A stretch of DNA of 64,000 nucleotides from a virus (Duplodnaviria; Caudoviricetes): the IMG/VR virus record IMGVR_UViG_3300044796_000401, one strand, 5' to 3'. Made by a program: the position numbers and the translations under genes. Positions 41,079 through 50,062 of the stretch are shown here, piece after piece (the stretch's first letter is position 1; each line of letters opens with the position of its first letter). The notes below the pieces were generated by a model. That model ran no database searches. It was not told the origin of the DNA and was given only the letters and a program-made list of their open reading frames with translations.

Positions 41079-42032
41079 TTATCCGAGTAACCAACGATTT
41101 TGTCTCAAACCCGCACTATAAGGTCTGTTTGCGGTAAGAAGGGGCGCCCACGTGTTGAACTGCTGGTCGAACGTCGAGCCGAGTGTGTGGTACATGCCGG
41201 ACTTGTTAATATCCAAAGATACACCGTTTAGGCTGTACGAAAATTCGTCAGCCGTCCACCTTGCAGACTCGCCGAGCAGGCAGAACGCCGCAGCGCCGAT
41301 CGCGGCGCACTTGCCCCAGTCCATTGGGATGCTGTCGAGCGTCCAGCCCGTGTAGTTCATGGGGTTCCATGTGTTGAGCTTGCCGATGCTGATGTCCAAG
41401 TTGATGAGGATATCCTCGTCCGTCCAGATGAAGCCCACGCGGGTGCTGTACCCGGCAACCACGCGGCCGGGCGTCGGCGGGCGGAAGTGGTAGTTGCGGT
41501 CGGGATTGTCGTCGCGGAGCAGCTTGCGGACATAGCGGATCGCCTTGGCGTACATATCGGGCGAAGTCTGGGCGCTGGCGATGCTCAGGGTCTTGCCTAT
41601 GATCATGCTGGGAGCCTCGAATGCCGGGTCGGCGGGATCGACCGCCTGCACCACGAAGTCCTCGAACACCTGATCCACTGGGGAACTCGGGTACTGCTGG
41701 AGGTACCACGTCAAACGGAAGATTCCGCCCCAAGTTGTCGGAATAGTGATCGGGACGAAGTAAGCCCCTTGCGAGGCGCGCTTGGGAATCTGGTTGGGTT
41801 GGCCGACCAACGCCAGCCCCTCGGGTGGCAGCGGCGGGCCGCCTTGCATATTTTGCGGCTGGTGCAAGTCCCACTCATAGGCTTGAGTCGGCTTCACCGG
41901 GATGGACTGGCTGATCTGGAAGATCGAATAGGTGATATTTTGGGGGTCCAATAAAGCACCACTCGCATCGCGCACAAGAATGGCTAGATTCCCAGCGTTT
42001 AATTGTTGGCCCTGTGTGAAGGTTACGCTCAT
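41079..42032 (-). CDS. Head-tail adaptor (neck)-like protein
   Basis: LRDDNPDRNYHFRPP...WTDEDI...N.WNP...FSYSLNGVSLDINKS pattern; position in the module. Confidence 0.55.
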   Translation of the reverse strand: MSVTFTQGQQLNAGNLAILVRDASGALLDPQNITYSIFQISQSIPVKPTQAYEWDLHQPQNMQGGPPLPPEGLALVGQPNQIPKRASQGAYFVPITIPTTWGGIFRLTWYLQQYPSSPVDQVFEDFVVQAVDPADPAFEAPSMIIGKTLSIASAQTSPDMYAKAIRYVRKLLRDDNPDRNYHFRPPTPGRVVAGYSTRVGFIWTDEDILINLDISIGKLNTWNPMNYTGWTLDSIPMDWGKCAAIGAAAFCLLGESARWTADEFSYSLNGVSLDINKSGMYHTLGSTFDQQFNTWAPLLTANRPYSAGLRQNRWLLG

Positions 42033-42490
42033 ACTGTCCCCGCCTTTCTTTGTACCTGAATCTGTCGCAAGCCCGGACTGAGAACCATCATGTCCCCATA
42101 AGAGAAATAGTTATTCTTGATTCGGTTGCAAACAACGCATGCTACCACAACATTGTTGTTCTCATACCCCTTCAAGTTGTTTTTCCTGTCCAAATTTATG
42201 GACCAATTTTTGTGCTTTAACCCGTTGCGGGGCGTCCACTGAACTTGTACACCGCAGTAATGGCACTCGACGATTTGCGTGAACTTAAAAAATTGTTCAA
42301 AAGTCAAGGAACACGGAACGCCGCGTTTCGCAGCATGGTAGGTAAGGCGGTTATACAACCACTCAAAAGGCCGTCGAAGACACCCGCCGCGACTCCTTTT
42401 ATTCGTTGGATAGCCAAATCTTCCGTACGGATGTTTGGCACGCCTCTCAACCCATAGGCTATGTATTTGCCATAAATTCATCCCTATCAT
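42029..42490 (-). CDS. HNH-family homing endonuclease
   Basis: CHYCG...NLDRKNNLKGYENNNVVVACVVCN. Confidence 0.75.
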   Translation of the reverse strand: MIGMNLWQIHSLWVERRAKHPYGRFGYPTNKRSRGGCLRRPFEWLYNRLTYHAAKRGVPCSLTFEQFFKFTQIVECHYCGVQVQWTPRNGLKHKNWSINLDRKNNLKGYENNNVVVACVVCNRIKNNYFSYGDMMVLSPGLRQIQVQRKAGTV

Positions 42491-43312: not shown

Positions 43313-43531
43313 CTAATGCTTCTCGGGTATGCGGATTCGATTGATGTTGAGGAGCCAGCCGAGGATTTTATGGGCTTTTACTCGGGCAACATGCTCGGAG
43401 ATGCCCAAGTCCCCGTGGTGCATGTCCATCAAGACAGCGGTGAGGTTATCGATGGTCCACTTGCTTTGGTACAATTCCATGATTCGCTCATCAGTGAGCT
43501 TGACTTCTTCTTCAGGAACGGTCATTAGCAT
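43313..43531 (-). CDS. Small hypothetical protein (start MLMTVPEE at 43531)
   Basis: Purine-rich RBS; overlaps the upstream ORF end. Confidence 0.55.
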   Translation of the reverse strand: MLMTVPEEEVKLTDERIMELYQSKWTIDNLTAVLMDMHHGDLGISEHVARVKAHKILGWLLNINRIRIPEKH

Positions 43532-43718
43532 GTCTTCTATCCTTCCCGATTCTGCGCTCGATCTTGTGCTCCTCGCAGCGTTCGCCCCAGACGACGGGCT
43601 TGCCGCAGAGCTTGGTGCCGAAGTTCCCGGCCAGTTCGGAGCCGTAGGTGTTCCAAACCCGCTCATTATCTGCGGCGTTCTCCCGATCAAATACCCATTC
43701 CAGGCATCCTTCGTTCAT
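43512..43718 (-). CDS. Small hypothetical protein whose ATG abuts the IS right end
   Basis: In the reconstructed empty site its ATG overlaps the upstream gene's TGA. Confidence 0.55.
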   Translation of the reverse strand: MNEGCLEWVFDRENAADNERVWNTYGSELAGNFGTKLCGKPVVWGERCEEHKIERRIGKDRRHANDRS

Positions 43719-44961
43719 CTCTTATGTCGCTGCGGATACCCCCAGTTTTAGCTGTGGGGAGGAAGCAGCGACCCTCCATGTATTGAAAGACAAAAACTTC
43801 GTGTCTTCTGGCTTGGCTGACTGCGTGAGCCTCTTGCCAGTTGAGACGTCGTGCAAACTGATACGACCCTTGGTTGCGCCGCCCACGTAGCACAGCCCGA
43901 ACTTCGGATGCCGAACCAACGAACCGCGAGAGAAGCCCTCGCTGCGCGTACCGCCATACGGCTTGCGAATATGCCCCTTGGAGAACTGCAAGCGATGCAA
44001 CTGGCGGCGGTGCAAACGAATTGGCTCGATGACCATCACGTCGGTGTTGTCTGGCTTCGTGTGCCCGCCAACTTCGTCGTTTGCCATTACCCAAGAATCA
44101 ACACAGTGCGCCGAGAAGTCCTCGGACAGTTTGTTCTTGGACTTCTTCAAGCCGTGGGCATCACGAAGTTTCTTCGTTTCCCAGCCCGTGTTGGTGCGAA
44201 GCAAACCCAACTTGCGAAGTTCGTCGTAAAACCACTTCTTGCCAACCTGCAATGGAGAGAACGACTTGTTCCAGCGGCGACCGCCGAAACAATGCGCCTT
44301 GATGTCCTCGACGCGGAAGTGCGTGACTGGAAAAATCTTTGCCAGTACAACAGCGATGCGAAGTTTCCAACCCCAGCGCGCTTTCGTGCTGGGTGGTATT
44401 CGTCCAATAGAACGATTGCAACGGTTTTGGCGGCACGGCGTGTTGCGATTACGGCGACCCCGGCGCATTTGGCGGCGAGTAGTAACCGCATCCTTAACCC
44501 AATCCACGGCGTGCGACTCGATGTTGAGATACGTATGCAATTCGGATTTGACCGTAAAGCCTTCCCGCTTGCTGCCTGGGTCAATGGCAACGACCACGGG
44601 TTGCATCTGTGTATCAGACGGCTGTTGGTTGAGGCGAACGCAGAACACACCCTTCTTGAAGAACGGTGTGGCTTTGCCTGAACGGACCCAGCGTCGTGCT
44701 CTTGCTGGGGTCGTGGGCATCAGCGGTTTTTGTTGCGAATCTACAACTGGTACATATTGCATTAAGCCACCTCTCGGTGTTTGTACTTCCCTTCGCCACT
44801 GACCTGCGGAGAGGTTCGAATTAGGGAAGCGTTCGAACATCCTATTGCCTACCACGGCAGCAGATTCAGTTAACATGGCTAGTCTCGGCTTACGTTGTGC
44901 TTTCGGATGTGGTTAGCACCCTTGGGTACAAGCCCCTAGCTTTAGCTATGGGGTCCTTGAC
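43719..44961 (-). mobile_element. Non-autonomous IS200/IS605-family element carrying omegaRNA and IsrB
   Basis: Left end GTCAAGGACCCCATAGCTAAAGCTAGGGG and right-end hairpin CCCCACAGCTAAAACTGGGGG; no tnpA inside. Confidence 0.85.
43722..44762 (-). CDS. isrB: IsrB (IscB relative lacking HNH), 346 aa, start MQYVPVVD
   Basis: PLMP/RRW N-terminus, RuvC-I IDPGSK, Arg-rich bridge helix, RuvC-II VEDIKA, RuvC-III HCVDSW; no HNH insertion. Confidence 0.85.
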   Translation of the reverse strand: MQYVPVVDSQQKPLMPTTPARARRWVRSGKATPFFKKGVFCVRLNQQPSDTQMQPVVVAIDPGSKREGFTVKSELHTYLNIESHAVDWVKDAVTTRRQMRRGRRNRNTPCRQNRCNRSIGRIPPSTKARWGWKLRIAVVLAKIFPVTHFRVEDIKAHCFGGRRWNKSFSPLQVGKKWFYDELRKLGLLRTNTGWETKKLRDAHGLKKSKNKLSEDFSAHCVDSWVMANDEVGGHTKPDNTDVMVIEPIRLHRRQLHRLQFSKGHIRKPYGGTRSEGFSRGSLVRHPKFGLCYVGGATKGRISLHDVSTGKRLTQSAKPEDTKFLSFNTWRVAASSPQLKLGVSAAT

Positions 44962-44985
44962 TGCTCCTCTGTCTCCCTCCGCATC
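44763..44985 (-). ncRNA. omegaRNA: scaffold 44961 to 44763 plus about 20 nt of 5' guide from the flank
   Basis: About 200 nt structured non-coding leader between the GTCAA left end and the isrB start; the standard OMEGA layout. Exact ends are inferred. Confidence 0.7.
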
Positions 44986-45311
44986 AACAGGTCGAGCCTG
45001 TTGCCCTTTTGAAAAACGACCCACGGATTCCCATTGCTCAGGCCGAGCAAAATCAGCACCCGTGCATCCGGCACAAACCTGGTCTGCCACCCGTAGCTGT
45101 CCGCTATCTTGCGGAGGGCGTCCTGCGTCCGGTCGTCCCACTTGCCGGATGGTGGGCCAGGCATGAAGTCGTGGGAGATCAAGACCTTTTGGATTTCGAC
45201 GATGCGCTGCGGATCGATCTGCTTCTGCCCCGTCATGGGCCTCTTGGGAGCCGCGCAAAGGGGCACAGCAAAGATTAAAAATAAAACGACAAACTTAGCT
45301 GGGCGTTTCAT
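44946..45311 (-). CDS. Secreted peptidoglycan-binding-domain protein
   Basis: Signal peptide; EIQKVL...SGKWDDRTQDALRK....GWQTRFVPDARVLILLGL. The last codons now come from the IS left end. Confidence 0.75.
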   Translation of the reverse strand: MKRPAKFVVLFLIFAVPLCAAPKRPMTGQKQIDPQRIVEIQKVLISHDFMPGPPSGKWDDRTQDALRKIADSYGWQTRFVPDARVLILLGLSNGNPWVVFQKGNRLDLLMRRETEEQSRTP

Positions 45312-46090: not shown

Positions 46091-47098
46091 TCAGCGTCTT
46101 CCTACCGCCTTAAACCCCAGTAATTCCCCAGCTTCATATCGTTTGTTGATGCCCCTTCTCGCCAGTTCCCTAAAACAGTCTCGACTACAAGTTTTTGCTC
46201 CAGAATGCCTCGGAGTGAAATCGGTGTCACATACAACGCATTTCACTAACTGTCGCCGTCTAGCGTTGCGCTTTTGCCAAACTATAAAACATTCCCGCCT
46301 ACATGTAGTCCTTTTCTTGTTTAGTATTTCTGTCCCACAGACAGCACACGCGGGAATGACCTGGGGGAGGGGCAAGCCGTACTTCTTGCACGTTACTAAG
46401 TTAGGCATCCATTTATAAATTTCCATCTTTCTTTTCATGGCTTTTGCTAAAGATTCAAGCGATTTAGGCTTCCCCCTGTTGGAGGCGGCTATCCGCGATT
46501 TTTGTGCTTCAGACATAATGTAGCCCCTACGCGCCCTAGACATATTTTCCCGAATTTCTTCCGTGTAGACCCGCTCTCTGGCCACTTTAGCTATGCGCTG
46601 GCGCTCAGACTCAGGCATGCCCTGTTCTTTTTTGATTCTAGAAAGAAGTTGTTTTTGGGCTTCCGACATTGGCCCTTTGGATTTTCCGCGCTGCAAGTCA
46701 CCGATAAGTTTTTTAGTTTTCTCGGAGTGCTTGTAGTTGTCCCTAGCTCTCCGAGTGGCAACATATTTAGAAATTTCTTCTGGAGTTCTAGTCCGTCCCC
46801 TTGTGCCCTGCTTCACGTAAGGCAGGCTGTTGTATCCGTTTTTATAGGCGTCAAGACGATCAATCCAATATTGCTCCCGCACTACCAACACGGCTGGATC
46901 GCATTTCTCTAAAACCAGCCATTTCCAACTATCGGGACCGTGCTTGCACCAAGCTCGAAGAAGCTTAGTGCCTGTGTGTTTTCTAGATTTCAGTTCTCGC
47001 TTATGAGTCGCCCATCGCCGTTCAATCGCTATAGAACCGCCTACATACCACTTGTTATTCACCGAGCATTGAACGCCATAAATTCCGCAAGTCTTCAT
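46091..47098 (-). CDS. GIY-YIG homing endonuclease with NUMOD3 and C-terminal zinc-ribbon repeats
   Basis: CGIYGVQCSVNNKWYVGGS; HSEKTK, SEAQK repeats; CAVCG..TCRREC and CVVC..TCSRDC. Confidence 0.88.
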   Translation of the reverse strand: MKTCGIYGVQCSVNNKWYVGGSIAIERRWATHKRELKSRKHTGTKLLRAWCKHGPDSWKWLVLEKCDPAVLVVREQYWIDRLDAYKNGYNSLPYVKQGTRGRTRTPEEISKYVATRRARDNYKHSEKTKKLIGDLQRGKSKGPMSEAQKQLLSRIKKEQGMPESERQRIAKVARERVYTEEIRENMSRARRGYIMSEAQKSRIAASNRGKPKSLESLAKAMKRKMEIYKWMPNLVTCKKYGLPLPQVIPACAVCGTEILNKKRTTCRRECFIVWQKRNARRRQLVKCVVCDTDFTPRHSGAKTCSRDCFRELARRGINKRYEAGELLGFKAVGRR

Positions 47099-47137: not shown

Positions 47138-50062
47138 TTATGCTCCGATTTCTGCCAGAAACCGGCTGGGAGATACCTTTTGCATATTTTGTCCCCGCAA
47201 TTCTTTGTCGTAGACGCATATGACAAGTTGGTTTCGTGCTCTTGTTACAGCGACGTACCATAATCTGCGTTCTTCCTCTATAGAGGACTCTTCTCCAAGA
47301 CAGAAACGGTGCGGTAGCACACCGTCTACCACACCAACTAGATACACGCGATTCCATTCCAGACCCTTCGCTTGATGGATTGTGGTGATAACCACGGAGC
47401 CCTGGTCGAGCACCTTGATCTTGGCGTCCAGTTCGTCCTTGGTGATCTTGCCCTCGTCATAAGCCTTCAAGACCGCCTCCCGCTCCTCGGCCTCGTCCCC
47501 CTTTGGGCGGTCGAGCGTGAGGTTGAAGATCAGGTCGTCGAGGCTCATGTTCCCGTCCTGCACCAGCACGATTATCATCATGTTGAACCGCTCGATGTTC
47601 TCCAGCTTGCTCTGCACCCTGCCGGGCTCTTTCTTGTATTTCTGCCGGACGTACTCCTTGTAATTGCTCATCGCCACGACCTTCTCGACGGCGGCGATGG
47701 GGGAATCCTTGAACAAGGATACGTGCTCGATGGTGTCGCAGAACATGCCGAGCTTGCGCTGCTCGCGGGCAGCTTGGATCAGGTCCCCGTCGTACTTCTC
47801 GTTCGCCTGCTGGCGGATTTTCTCAAGGGTTGCCTCCCCCACGCCGCACTTCGGCGCGCCCGCCGCCCGTACGAGCGCCATGAAATCCTTGTGGTTGGCG
47901 GCGAGGCGCATGTACGCCATGATGTCCCGGATTTCCTCCGCGGCCAATAGTCCCCGCCCGCCGCGGACGATGTAGGGGATGTGGCGGCGTATCAGTTCGC
48001 TCTCAAGGTCGCGGATTTGGATTCCCGCGCGCACGAGCAGGGCGTTGTCCTTGTACGCGAGAACGCCGTGGCGGCTGTCCCGTGCTATTTCCTGCGCGAT
48101 GGCGGCGGCGACGCTCTGTGGGAAAGCCAAGACCATCTTGCGAACTTCGCCGTGTTCGTTGTTCATTCCCCGCCACGAGACCATTTGGATAGGTATCGTC
48201 CGCGTCATTTTTTTACAAATCAGGTTGGCGAAGTCCACGATCTCCGGCGCGCTGCGATGGTTGCGCTGGATTTTATAGAGGGCGGGTCGTACGCCGCGCC
48301 AATCCTCGGAATACTTGCGCATGATTTCCGGCACGGCCCCGTTGAAGCCATAGATTGAATTTCCAACCACAAGACCGTCTGCAATGTATGTGTGGTCTTT
48401 TTCCACGTCCAACGAATACACTAGCCCTTCGTACCGCTCAACGGAGACGGACGACAACGATGTAAATTTATTCACTCCTTGCACGGGAATATCCAGCAAG
48501 GGAGCGATGGGAACGATATTGGCGGCAATTGTCTTGAAATACCCACGCCATTTACGGTTACATTGATTGACTGATGCGCTGTCGAATCGCTCCACCAGCG
48601 GAATGTCCGCAAAGAGTCCGTAATCAGTCAAACATCGTTCGGCATTTGCGGGATTTGCATGAGAAAATACTAACTTAATAAAGTCTTGAGTTTTATTCCG
48701 ACAAGCATGCCCCGCATTGAAAACACTTTCGGGAATTCCATATTTAACCGAAGTAATTTCTTCCCAGGCTTCCGCTTCCCGCCTAGAATCACATACCCTC
48801 AAAATCCATGCTTTGTTTCCTCGTTCACAACTCAATCTACTACTAAGTCCAAAGCCGTTTCGACTCATACAACCCTTCTTAAATCTGCTGATCCCAACCC
48901 TATAACCGTAACCCAATTTGTACATTAGGTACACAATGTACTTATTGTGGGTGTTCTTGTTGAACCGTACCCACAGCCAGTGGTTCGGTGTGACTCGTGT
49001 TGATGCTCCGTTTTCCGCTTTAATCGTAAGAAGCGATCCCTTGTATATGCGGCTGAACACACTAACTTTTCTTGGGATAGAGTAAGTTCGCTGGTCTACC
49101 TTTGTCCAAGAAATCACATCTCCAACCAACCCCTCTATAGCTACAGTTTTGTACGTAGCCGAAACAAAACCTCGACCGTTTCCCGGTCCTCGGGTTCTTA
49201 TAGGGTGGTCTAAAATTGTGACTTTAGTTCCGGGGGGTTGGCATTGATTCATGTCCCCCACGACGTACATGTCTTTCTTTTCCGGATGCAAAAGCCCGTT
49301 GATGAACTCCCACTGCACGGGATTGGTGTCCTGCCCCTCGTCCATCAAAACATGATCGAATTGCTTGTGCAGGACCGCCAGCCAACGCTCGTCCGTACGC
49401 ATGCGGCGCACGGCATAATGCAGCATGTCGTCGAAGTCCACGACATTCGCGGCTAATTTCTCCCGCTCGAACTCCTCCCATAGGTCCAATTCCACCTCGT
49501 CCATGGCATGGTATCCGGCGTGCGTCTTCAGGGCTTGCTCGTGCACGTCGTCCGTGTACTCCTTGCGGAAGCCCACGCCCCGCGCCCGGTGAAAGGAAAT
49601 CCTGTCCAGCACCCGAAACATCAGGGAAGTCGTGTCCTCCTCGAATTTGCGGCGGCCGATGATCTTCTTCATCATCTGCTTCTGGTCGTAGTCGTCGAGC
49701 GGGGTGACTTTATCTTGCAATCCGAATCCCTCGGGGTTCTTGCGGATGCCGCTGAGGGCGAGCGAGTGGATGGTGGACATCCTCGGCATCGGTCCGTTTT
49801 CAATGCCCGGAATAGCCTCTATAACCCTTCGCGCAATTTCTCCTGCCGCACGATTCGTAAATGTCACACAGCATATCTTGGGGGGAGGCACACCCTGCTC
49901 AATCAACCAAACCACTCTGGATTGCAGGCACTTGGTTTTTCCGGAACCCGCGCCAGCGATCAACACTGCCGGGGAACCGGTCGGATGCGTCACAGCCAAA
50001 CGCTGTTCTTCATTTAGGGAGGACACGAGTGGCGGCAAGTCAGGGGTGCACATAATCATCAA
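47138..50062 (-). CDS. UvrD/PcrA/Rep-family helicase with intein (start may be ATG 50059 or 50053)
   Basis: AGAGSGKT Walker A, TFTNRAA, MDEGQDTN, VGDMNQ|SIYGF, NHRS, TIHQAKGLEW, EERRLWYVAVTRA. Confidence 0.92.
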   Translation of the reverse strand: MMIMCTPDLPPLVSSLNEEQRLAVTHPTGSPAVLIAGAGSGKTKCLQSRVVWLIEQGVPPPKICCVTFTNRAAGEIARRVIEAIPGIENGPMPRMSTIHSLALSGIRKNPEGFGLQDKVTPLDDYDQKQMMKKIIGRRKFEEDTTSLMFRVLDRISFHRARGVGFRKEYTDDVHEQALKTHAGYHAMDEVELDLWEEFEREKLAANVVDFDDMLHYAVRRMRTDERWLAVLHKQFDHVLMDEGQDTNPVQWEFINGLLHPEKKDMYVVGDMNQCQPPGTKVTILDHPIRTRGPGNGRGFVSATYKTVAIEGLVGDVISWTKVDQRTYSIPRKVSVFSRIYKGSLLTIKAENGASTRVTPNHWLWVRFNKNTHNKYIVYLMYKLGYGYRVGISRFKKGCMSRNGFGLSSRLSCERGNKAWILRVCDSRREAEAWEEITSVKYGIPESVFNAGHACRNKTQDFIKLVFSHANPANAERCLTDYGLFADIPLVERFDSASVNQCNRKWRGYFKTIAANIVPIAPLLDIPVQGVNKFTSLSSVSVERYEGLVYSLDVEKDHTYIADGLVVGNSIYGFNGAVPEIMRKYSEDWRGVRPALYKIQRNHRSAPEIVDFANLICKKMTRTIPIQMVSWRGMNNEHGEVRKMVLAFPQSVAAAIAQEIARDSRHGVLAYKDNALLVRAGIQIRDLESELIRRHIPYIVRGGRGLLAAEEIRDIMAYMRLAANHKDFMALVRAAGAPKCGVGEATLEKIRQQANEKYDGDLIQAAREQRKLGMFCDTIEHVSLFKDSPIAAVEKVVAMSNYKEYVRQKYKKEPGRVQSKLENIERFNMMIIVLVQDGNMSLDDLIFNLTLDRPKGDEAEEREAVLKAYDEGKITKDELDAKIKVLDQGSVVITTIHQAKGLEWNRVYLVGVVDGVLPHRFCLGEESSIEEERRLWYVAVTRARNQLVICVYDKELRGQNMQKVSPSRFLAEIGA
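48359..49243 (-). mobile_element. Intein (295 aa) in the helicase
   Basis: Begins CQPPGT, ends VYSLDVEKDHTYIADGLVVGN before S+1; removal restores the GDxxQSIYGF motif. Confidence 0.88.

What the first reader, a model, noticed from the sequence alone, without database searches (positions are those of the whole stretch)
43512..45311. IsrB OMEGA element inserted exactly at an ATGA stop/start overlap
Seen: removing 43719..44961 gives ...GAG GAG CA|A TGA AC..., so the upstream gene ends E-E-Q-stop in frame and the downstream ATG overlaps it by 4 nt. The element supplies a replacement stop, leaving both genes intact. Established: the OMEGA guide comes from the 5' flank and the TAM lies 3' of the insertion; NTGA-type TAMs are reported for IsrB. 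Prediction: guide about ATGCGGAGGGAGACAGAGGAGCA, TAM ATGA. Inference: such a TAM steers the element to coupled gene junctions, a safe harbour in dense phage genomes.
Basis: partly seen in the sequence, partly recalled or inferred. Interest (0 to 1): 0.72.

Follow-up and report, generated by a model that had tools for sequence, protein, structure and literature searches.

The report
IsrB guide-RNA transposon at gene junction
A 1,243-base mobile element carrying the RNA-guided DNA nickase IsrB and its guide RNA sits exactly on the four-letter ATGA overlap between two genes of a giant peat/pond phage, leaving both genes intact; it is a clean but ordinary member of a known family, and its relatives show the same liking for start codons.

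Summary
Window 43719..44961 (minus strand) is a non-autonomous IS200/IS605-type element. It carries an omegaRNA (HEARO-like, starting exactly at 44961), a 346-aa IsrB (43722..44762) and hairpin ends, and it abuts ATGA (43718..43715).

Its boundaries are fixed by other copies in metagenomes. Their homology starts at TCAT+43719 and ends at 44961/2.

Five relatives of the upstream protein all end ...E-[E/D]-Q-stop. The window protein carries four extra residues (SRTP) read from the element.

One related contig (L183) has the predicted empty site: ...GAGGAACA|ATGAACGAAGGAT. Three others have the same CAATGA overlap, but followed by an extra 61-68 aa gene, and one has a decayed remnant of that gene.

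Across 43 unique viral insertions of this IsrB clade:
- 37 abut ATGA.
- The ATG opens a long ORF in 33/42, against 26% of other ATGA sites.
- 9/37 are stop/start overlaps, against 2.9%.

The ATGA TAM/target, IsrB elements in phages, and co-orientation with host genes are all published. Earlier notes of this scan found IsrB elements at start codons on other DNA.

"Steering" is not shown, because selection on survivors could give the same pattern. Verdict: new member of a known kind, modest interest.

The parts
43719..44961 (-). Whole non-autonomous IS200/IS605-type (ISC-type) element, 1,243 bp
   Evidence: HEARO model position 1 falls at 44961. Homology breakpoints of other copies lie at 43715 and at 44961/2. 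End motifs are conserved across the clade.
44962..44981 (-). Predicted 20-nt guide (5'-CGGAGGGAGACAGAGGAGCA-3'). It is the last 20 nt of the upstream gene before the element.
   Evidence: Inferred from position directly 5' of the scaffold. The 20-nt length is taken from DtIsrB (PMC9581776). Not measured.
44763..44961 (-). omegaRNA scaffold (HEARO-like), short form of about 199 nt, running up to the IsrB start
   Evidence: Rfam RF02033 hit at 44781..44961: 34.4 bits, below the gathering score of 83, E 6.5e-5, full model. A relative, L059, scores 111 bits. 27 of 33 consensus pairs show compensatory changes in 18 relatives.
43722..44762 (-). isrB gene, 346 aa plus TAA. The real start is MQYVPVVD, not the upstream ATG of the 384-aa ORF.
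   Evidence: Pfam RRXRR. The KPLMP motif and D61/E152/H219/D222 are invariant in alignment A3. Best solved structure is DtIsrB 8DMB. Relatives align from this Met.
43719..43782 (-). IsrB-3' end of the element, which is the transposon left end in TnpA convention. Inner hairpin 43740-43759, outer stem 43726-43733/43765-43772, then 21 nt to the boundary.
   Evidence: nhmmer model built from related ends, E 4e-7. The hairpin resembles the one at the omegaRNA end.
43715..43718 (-). ATGA: predicted TAM and TnpA target (TCAT, within TTCAT, on the + strand). It is also the start codon of the downstream gene.
   Evidence: ATGA lies at this place in 37/43 unique relatives. Published TAMs are NTGA (DtIsrB) and TTCAT (GstIscB).
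44946..45311 (-). Upstream gene (signal-peptide protein with a weak peptidoglycan-binding hit), 121 aa. The third base of the Q codon, four further codons (SRTP) and the TAG stop come from the element (44946-44961).
   Evidence: Homologues end at Q. Alignment A1.
43512..43718 (-). Downstream 68-aa gene (MNEGCLEW...), intact. The IsrB stop TAA lies 3 nt before its ATG.

Best explanation
A non-autonomous IS200/IS605-family element carrying the omegaRNA and the RNA-guided nickase IsrB inserted, by single-strand 'peel-and-paste' transposition, 3' of TCAT on the window's + strand. That site is directly 5' of ATGA on the gene strand. The catalyst would be a Y1 TnpA supplied in trans.

At that place the stop codon of a secreted peptidoglycan-binding-like gene overlapped the start codon of the next small gene (…CA-ATGA-AC…).

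The insertion is translationally almost silent, for three reasons:
- The first base of the element (G) completes the last sense codon (CAG = Gln, as before).
- Four codons later a stop in the first hairpin of the omegaRNA ends the upstream protein (+SRTP).
- The ATG of the downstream gene is untouched and now lies 3 nt after the IsrB stop codon, so it can be translated by reinitiation.

The element has no promoter-like site of its own. The omegaRNA, whose guide is the last ~20 nt of the upstream gene, is therefore made from read-through transcription of the phage operon.

The IsrB-omegaRNA complex should recognise only the element-free junction (guide match plus ATGA TAM) and nick it. This would favour re-copying of the element after excision, or copying into element-free co-infecting genomes.

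Shown here: the anatomy, the boundaries, an empty allele, the effect on the two genes, conservation of the ATGA site, and its enrichment at start codons.
Inferred: nickase activity, the guide and TAM, the transcription route, the source of TnpA, and translational coupling.
For: - Identity: Pfam RRXRR E 4e-35 and no HNH. Full-length match to DtIsrB 8DMB, E 4e-35, against only N-terminal matches to IscBs. PLMP motif and RuvC D/E/H-D invariant.
- omegaRNA: HEARO hit starting at 44961. A relative scores above Rfam's threshold. 27/33 pairs covary.
- Boundaries: other copies' breakpoints and conserved clade ends.
- Empty site: L183 reads ...GAGGAACA-ATGA-ACGAAGGAT with no element. L011/L012, L013 and L014 have the same CAATGA overlap at the upstream gene's stop. 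Homologues end ...E[ED]Q.
- Fixed and maintained: the exact IsrB protein occurs in 21 contigs, always in this context. The SRTP-tailed protein is on record on 9 contigs as a 96-aa gene call and on 23 as the 121-aa call. A 1.3%-diverged strain keeps the insertion, with 9 synonymous changes against 7 changed codons in isrB.
- Site preference: ATGA in 37/43 (p about 3e-38). The ATG opens an ORF of 60 codons or more in 33/42, against 26% (p 2e-12). Overlap type is 9/37 against 2.9% (p 9e-7). The same pattern holds in bacterial loci, 16/18.
- Replacement stop: in the reading phase used by overlap insertions, 76% of elements stop within 25 nt, against 27% at random positions.
- No promoter-like site and no convincing same-strand terminator in or near the element.
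- Literature: NTGA TAM, 20-nt guide and non-target-strand nick (PMC9581776). The omegaRNA lies at the transposon end, needs outside transcription and is co-oriented with host genes; GstIscB has a TTCAT TAM, the reverse complement of ATGAA (10.1101/2023.03.14.532601).
Against: - No isogenic empty allele was found. L183 is only 67% identical in the upstream protein, and its contig ends 9 nt after the ATGA.
- The closest relative (L008, 78%) has a 53-nt spacer and a TAA stop, not an overlap. Three other relatives have an extra gene in the slot.
- The Rfam HEARO score in the window is well below the gathering threshold.
- No TnpA was found in the 64-kb window (one tblastn query). Mobility today is therefore unproven.
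- No RNA evidence for the omegaRNA.
- The enrichment counts are unique junctions, not phylogenetically independent events. ORF length is a proxy for 'gene'.
Confidence: 0.85

Rival explanations
1. Insertion came first and gene loss second. The element entered one of the two ATGA sites that flank the small 61-68 aa gene seen in relatives (MTYRV...). That gene was then deleted between the two ATGA repeats, or by an aberrant TnpA event using the second TCAT. On this reading the element now 'replaces' a gene rather than having hit a two-gene overlap.
For: In L011 and L013 both junctions of the small gene are ATGA sites. The window's left flank matches junction 1 and its right flank matches junction 2. 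The small gene is lost independently in L008.
Against: L183 shows that a genome with the direct overlap, with neither the small gene nor the element, exists. Insertion into a pre-existing overlap therefore needs one event fewer in the window's lineage. There is no remnant of the small gene next to the element.
Confidence: 0.12
2. The element is no longer a transposon. It is a fixed, phage-retained homing or competition nickase. It spreads or persists only by nicking element-free relatives during co-infection (non-restorative homing), or it gives the phage an edge over them.
For: It is fixed at one site in all contigs from many samples. isrB is under apparent purifying selection. No TnpA in the window. 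The neighbourhood is rich in homing-type genes, namely GIY-YIG and an intein. The concept is discussed in PMC13565253.
Against: Both transposon ends are intact. Near-identical ends occur at other sites, and as gene-less mini copies, in the same metagenomes, which suggests recent TnpA-type mobility of the family. The guide has 5 mismatches to the only empty relative found. IsrB makes a nick, not a double-strand break.
Confidence: 0.2
3. The start-codon and overlap bias is pure survivorship. TnpA inserts at any TCAT/ATGA, and only insertions that do not break genes persist in dense genomes. Nothing about the element is adapted to junctions.
For: The target is only 4 nt. A documented jump into phage Mic1 landed at an ATGA inside a gene and crippled it (PMC11237433). 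22 of 37 insertions are neither overlaps nor short-spacer junctions by my ORF criteria.
Against: The element's own sequence fits junction life. There is a stop codon in the first hairpin loop in exactly the phase used by overlap insertions (76% against 27%). The IsrB stop lies at or within a few nt of the TAM in many copies, and in eight it is the TAM's own TGA. These could, however, be by-products of RNA and end structure.
Confidence: 0.4

Closest known systems
DtIsrB-omegaRNA of Desulfovirgula thermocuniculi (PDB 8DMB; Hirano et al. 2022, PMC9581776)
   Same: Same protein architecture (PLMP, split RuvC, no HNH, C-terminal TAM-interacting part), aligned over residues 3-341 at E 4e-35. The omegaRNA lies 5' of the gene with the guide at its 5' end. 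The TAM is of NTGA type, and ATGA was among the TAMs tested there.
   Different: The omegaRNA scaffold here is about 199 nt, against 262 nt, and falls below Rfam's HEARO threshold. The element is carried by a giant phage. Activity was not tested.
ISGst5 IscB element of Geobacillus stearothermophilus (Meers et al. 2023, 10.1101/2023.03.14.532601)
   Same: [quoted passage not shown] The target/TAM is TTCAT next to the left end, and the window has exactly TTCAT at 43714-43718 on the + strand. It needs outside transcription, is co-oriented with the upstream gene, and is usually without tnpA.
   Different: That nuclease is an IscB with HNH, which cuts both strands. Here it is an HNH-less nickase. 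No excision or cleavage data exist for this element.
Host IsrB element that jumped into cyanophage Mic1 gp49 (PMC11237433)
   Same: An IsrB element in a phage genome, inserted at 5'-ATGA-3'.
   Different: That insertion lies inside a gene and inactivates it. The one here lies on a stop/start overlap, leaves both genes whole, and is fixed in the population.

Membership tests
IsrB (OMEGA RNA-guided nickase) | N-terminal PLMP domain | tested here: met
   KPLMP at residues 12-16. Pfam RRXRR covers residues 1-155 of the 346-aa protein, E 4e-35 (where the numbering is that of the 384-aa ORF). Aligned to the DtIsrB N-terminus.
IsrB (OMEGA RNA-guided nickase) | Split RuvC domain with catalytic Asp/Glu/His-Asp | tested here: met
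   D61 (IDPGSK), E152 (VEDIK) and H219/D222 (AHCVDSW) are invariant in 5 clade members. This is sequence level only.
IsrB (OMEGA RNA-guided nickase) | No HNH insertion (this separates IsrB from IscB) | tested here: met
   No HNH family hit in Pfam. 346 aa in total, with about 66 aa between RuvC-II and RuvC-III. The full-length PDB match is to IsrB; IscBs match only the N-terminal ~120 residues, or 189 in one case.
IsrB (OMEGA RNA-guided nickase) | Structured omegaRNA (HEARO) directly upstream, with the guide at its 5' end | tested here: met
   Consensus structure of 18 clade omegaRNAs: 27/33 pairs with compensatory changes. Relative L059 scores 111 bits, above the gathering score of 83.
IsrB (OMEGA RNA-guided nickase) | Window RNA reaches Rfam's curated HEARO threshold | tested here: not met
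   34.4 bits against a gathering score of 83 (E 6.5e-5, full model, several helices missing). It is a shortened variant. Membership rests on the clade alignment.
IsrB (OMEGA RNA-guided nickase) | Guide- and TAM-dependent nicking of the non-target strand | not testable with these tools
   Needs biochemistry. Only the conserved ATGA next to the elements was seen.
IS200/IS605 (ISC-type, non-autonomous) | Subterminal hairpins at both ends, no terminal inverted repeats, no target-site duplication | tested here: met
   Similar hairpins lie near both ends (43740-43759 and 44933-44953). The flanks GAGGAGCA and ATGAACG are not duplicated.
IS200/IS605 (ISC-type, non-autonomous) | Insertion 3' of a fixed tetra- or pentanucleotide that abuts the left end | tested here: met
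   TCAT (ATGA on the gene strand) abuts this end in 37/43 unique viral and 18/20 bacterial relatives.
IS200/IS605 (ISC-type, non-autonomous) | Element-free allele with the flanks joined seamlessly | tested here: met
   L183, though from a diverged relative on a short contig.
IS200/IS605 (ISC-type, non-autonomous) | Y1 TnpA transposase available (in cis or in trans) | tested here: inconclusive
   None in the element. None in the 64-kb window by tblastn with one phage TnpA. The rest of the ~240-270 kb genome and the host were not available. A megaphage with five IsrB copies does carry an IS605 tnpA-tnpB pair.

The most novel reading that the evidence does not exclude
This widespread IsrB clade may be adapted to live on start codons of co-transcribed genes. 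Its 4-nt target/TAM, ATGA, is 'start codon plus A' and also the commonest stop/start overlap. Its first hairpin loop carries a stop codon in the phase needed to end the upstream gene. Its own stop lies at or on the TAM, so that the downstream gene is re-initiated. It borrows the operon's transcription for its guide RNA. In phages this would make it a nearly cost-free passenger that can also home into element-free relatives. The variable small-gene slot here would be a place where such homing reshuffles accessory genes.
Probability: 0.3. Interest if true: 0.6.

Novelty: new member of a known kind. Interest (0 to 1): 0.4.

Why it matters
The locus is a tidy natural example of an OMEGA element whose guide, TAM, empty site and effect on both neighbouring genes can all be read from sequence. 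It lies in an abundant, uncultured giant phage of peat and pond habitats.

The wider count made here covers 43 viral and 20 bacterial unique insertions. It puts numbers on a pattern that I found only as single cases, in one paper and in this scan's notes: these elements sit immediately before start codons, and a quarter of them on ATGA stop/start overlaps.

If that reflects adaptation rather than survivorship, it would explain how RNA-guided transposons persist in genomes with almost no non-coding DNA. It would also give a testable rule for predicting IsrB TAMs and guides from genomes.

None of it changes what is known about how IsrB works.

Tried and rejected
- No whole genome is held for the window, so other copies and a tnpA elsewhere in the phage could not be sought.
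- The GenBank phage collection held only one weak match, to isrB.
- The single metagenome scan re-found only L008's source contig.
- IMG/VR had no relative of the upstream protein under single-sequence patterns.
- Read laying on four runs (Logan contigs only) showed no joint that skips the element.
- The RNA run had no contig on the omegaRNA. Neither this nor the missing joint says anything about excision or expression.
- The predicted empty junction, written with wobble positions, was not found in IMG/VR or in the GTDB genomes. The empty allele came instead from a protein look-up.
- A generic hairpin finder for the element ends was too noisy or too strict. It was replaced by nhmmer models.
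- Shine-Dalgarno-like motifs in the last 16 nt of viral elements are not enriched: 4/43 against an 11% background. I therefore dropped the idea that the end generally supplies a ribosome-binding site, although several cyanobacterial copies end in GAGG/GGAG-TTTT before the ATG.
- Weinberg et al. 2009 described HEARO. I recall, unverified, that it noted integration next to ATGA/GTGA. I could not retrieve it.
- tblastn with one TnpA found nothing in the window. That is a weak negative.
Full report
**What is there**

All genes in this stretch lie on the minus strand. Read in gene order:
- A 121-aa secreted-looking protein with a weak peptidoglycan-binding hit (44946..45311).
- About 200 nt without an ORF of its own.
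- A 346-aa ORF (43722..44762) with Pfam RRXRR (E 4e-35) and no HNH.
- Three bases later, a 68-aa ORF (43512..43718).

The 346-aa protein aligns over its whole length to the solved nickase DtIsrB (8DMB, E 4e-35). It aligns only over its N-terminal part to IscBs. It has the PLMP motif. The RuvC residues D61, E152 and H219/D222 are invariant among five clade members.

The 200 nt upstream match Rfam HEARO from model position 1 at 44961 to 44781. The score is only 34.4 bits (gathering score 83, E 6.5e-5). A 59%-identical relative scores 111 bits. A consensus fold of 18 related leaders has compensatory changes in 27 of 33 pairs. The leader is therefore a shortened but real omegaRNA.

**Boundaries**

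The omegaRNA end begins GTCAAGGACCCC... at 44961. The other end carries an inner hairpin (43740-43759), an outer stem, and 21 further bases to 43719.

They share sequence with the window only from 43715 (TCAT plus the element) and only up to 44961 or 44962. Beyond those points they run into unrelated DNA (table 7).

**The reconstructed site**

Removing 43719..44961 gives ...GAG GAG CAA TGA AC.... Three lines of evidence support this as the ancestral state.

1. The five closest homologues of the upstream protein (64-78% identical) all end ...E-[E/D]-Q-stop at exactly this residue. The window protein runs on for SRTP, read from the element.
2. Contigs L011/L012, L013 and L014 have ...GAR CAA TGA at the gene end, with the ATG of the next gene overlapping by four bases.
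3. Contig L183 reads ...GAGGAACA-ATGA-ACGAAGGAT. That is the upstream stop overlapping the start of the same downstream gene as in the window, with neither element nor extra gene.

Caveats on L183: it is diverged (67% in the protein) and it ends nine bases after the ATGA.

In L011, L013 and L014 the gene that overlaps the stop is a different 61-68 aa ORF (MTYRV...). The window's downstream gene follows only after it, and it also begins ATGA in two of them.

L008 is the closest relative by the upstream protein. It keeps just a 45-nt remnant of that ORF and has TAA in place of TGA. The slot is therefore variable.

The window's element is flanked on one side by 'junction 1' and on the other by 'junction 2'. 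Because L183 shows the direct overlap exists on its own, insertion into a pre-existing overlap is the simplest history. Insertion followed by loss of the small gene remains possible (I give it about 0.12).

**State in nature**

- The stretch is held by 20 runs from 13 studies, from peat and pond metagenomes and viral-metagenome runs.
- The exact IsrB protein is on 21 contigs, always in this context.
- The SRTP-tailed protein is on record on 9 contigs as a 96-aa gene call and on 23 as the 121-aa call, the longest 270 kb. The cluster holds no tail-less member.
- A strain about 1.3% diverged keeps the insertion. Its isrB differs by 9 synonymous changes and 7 changed codons, with no stop once two adjacent changes in one codon are read together. 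This suggests purifying selection.
- No isogenic empty allele and no excision joint was found. The data were contigs only, so this is not evidence of absence.

**The clade**

A profile search of IMG/VR gave 80 loci with 45-66% identical IsrBs, many in contigs of 100-485 kb. I located the ends with nhmmer models of the two ends. Results:
- 45 distinct omegaRNA ends start GTCAA.
- Of 43 unique IsrB-3' ends, 37 are followed by ATGA. The rest are followed by ATGG (2), ATGT, GTGA, GTGG and GTGT. About 0.064 is expected per site, p about 3e-38.
- The ATG opens an ORF of at least 60 codons in 33 of 42 evaluable cases, against 26% for other same-strand ATGA sites in the same loci (p 2e-12).
- After removing the element in silico, 9 of 37 are stop/start overlaps with a long ORF on each side, against 2.9% of other ATGA sites (p 9e-7).
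- Of the 80 best bacterial relatives, mostly filamentous cyanobacteria, only 21 ends were found by the phage-trained model (20 unique). Of those 20, 18 abut ATGA, and 16 of 18 evaluable ones open long ORFs.

The general rule is therefore 'immediately before a start codon'. The coupled-junction case is a sizeable subset of it.

These are unique junctions, not independent events, and ORF length stands in for gene calls.

**Features that make the insertion cheap**

- In the reading phase used by overlap insertions (the first element base is codon position 3), 76% of elements supply a stop within 25 nt, with a median of 19 nt. At random positions the figure is 27%. The stop is the UAA/UGA of the conserved first hairpin loop. 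In the window it is a TAG one codon earlier.
- The IsrB stop lies within a few bases of the boundary in many copies. In eight it is the TGA of the ATGA itself. In the window, TAA is 3 nt before the ATG.
- No promoter-like site and no convincing same-strand terminator lies in or around the element. This fits the published view that IscB/IsrB omegaRNAs depend on transcription from the upstream host gene.

These may be adaptations, or they may be by-products of RNA and end structure. I cannot tell which.

**What is already known**

[quoted passage not shown] The TAM equals the TnpA target next to the left end. For GstIscB it is TTCAT, which is exactly what precedes 43719 on the + strand. The elements are co-oriented with upstream genes and rarely carry tnpA.
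- A host IsrB element has been seen to jump into cyanophage Mic1 at an ATGA inside a gene (PMC11237433).
- Homing into co-infecting phages is discussed in a 2026 review (PMC13565253).
- Earlier notes of this scan report IsrB elements at start codons in a cox operon, at nifE and in an archaeal genome, and an IsrB/TnpB swarm in a huge phage. I did not re-test those loci, but my counts agree with them.
- I recall, but could not retrieve, that the paper first describing HEARO already noted ATGA/GTGA next to the element.

**Verdict**

The element is an ordinary member of the IsrB/IS200-IS605 family in a neat, fully readable setting.

The causal claim that the TAM 'steers' it to coupled junctions is not established. 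The enrichment is real, but it is broader (start codons in general), and survival of harmless insertions could produce it.

Noticed in passing
window 43715-43759, as seen in runs X16 and X19 (tables 7 and 8): Contigs in which the IsrB-3' end and hairpin (43719-43759) run straight into ...TCCTTGAC or ...CCCTTGAC, the last 8 nt of the omegaRNA end, and then into unrelated DNA. These look like roughly 50-nt gene-less mini copies (a hairpin-to-hairpin deletion) at other sites.
   Followed up: no
window 42029-42490, 46091-47098, 47138-50062 (all minus strand): The element sits among other selfish-looking genes: a 153-aa ORF with an HNH-like Cys/His/Asn pattern (by eye only), a 335-aa GIY-YIG protein, and a UvrD-type helicase split by an intein (Pfam tags).
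   Followed up: no
L011 1714-1920, L013 876-1067, L014 513-698; remnant in L008 2951-3000: A small accessory ORF (MTYRV/MTVVG..., 61-68 aa) is present, decayed or absent in the same slot in related phages. It is bracketed by ATGA sites at both ends in L011 and L013.
   Followed up: partly
L095 (G001:C1:43933-47286), with L086, L087, L089, L090 and L093 on the same 327-kb viral contig: One megaphage contig carries five IsrB copies plus an IS605 unit with a Y1 TnpA (141 bits) next to a TnpB-like ORF. A phage can therefore supply the transposase for its own IsrB elements.
   Followed up: partly
L001, about 60-95 nt after the element's ATGA (output): A 32-nt sequence resembling a CRISPR repeat (GTCGCTCCCCGTACGGGAGCGTGGATTGAAAC) lies just downstream of an IsrB element on a viral contig.
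   Followed up: no
L035 1211-1281; L077 2525-2572 and 2620-2667; L020 472-529: Duplicated or solo element ends: a tandem copy of the first omegaRNA hairpin module (L035), two copies of the IsrB-3' end 95 nt apart (L077), and a lone 3'-end-like sequence about 1 kb upstream of an element (L020).
   Followed up: no
L081, L087, L093 and others (distance -4): In eight viral elements the isrB reading frame runs through the transposon end and uses the TGA of the target ATGA as its stop codon. In those cases isrB and the host gene themselves form an ATGA overlap.
   Followed up: partly
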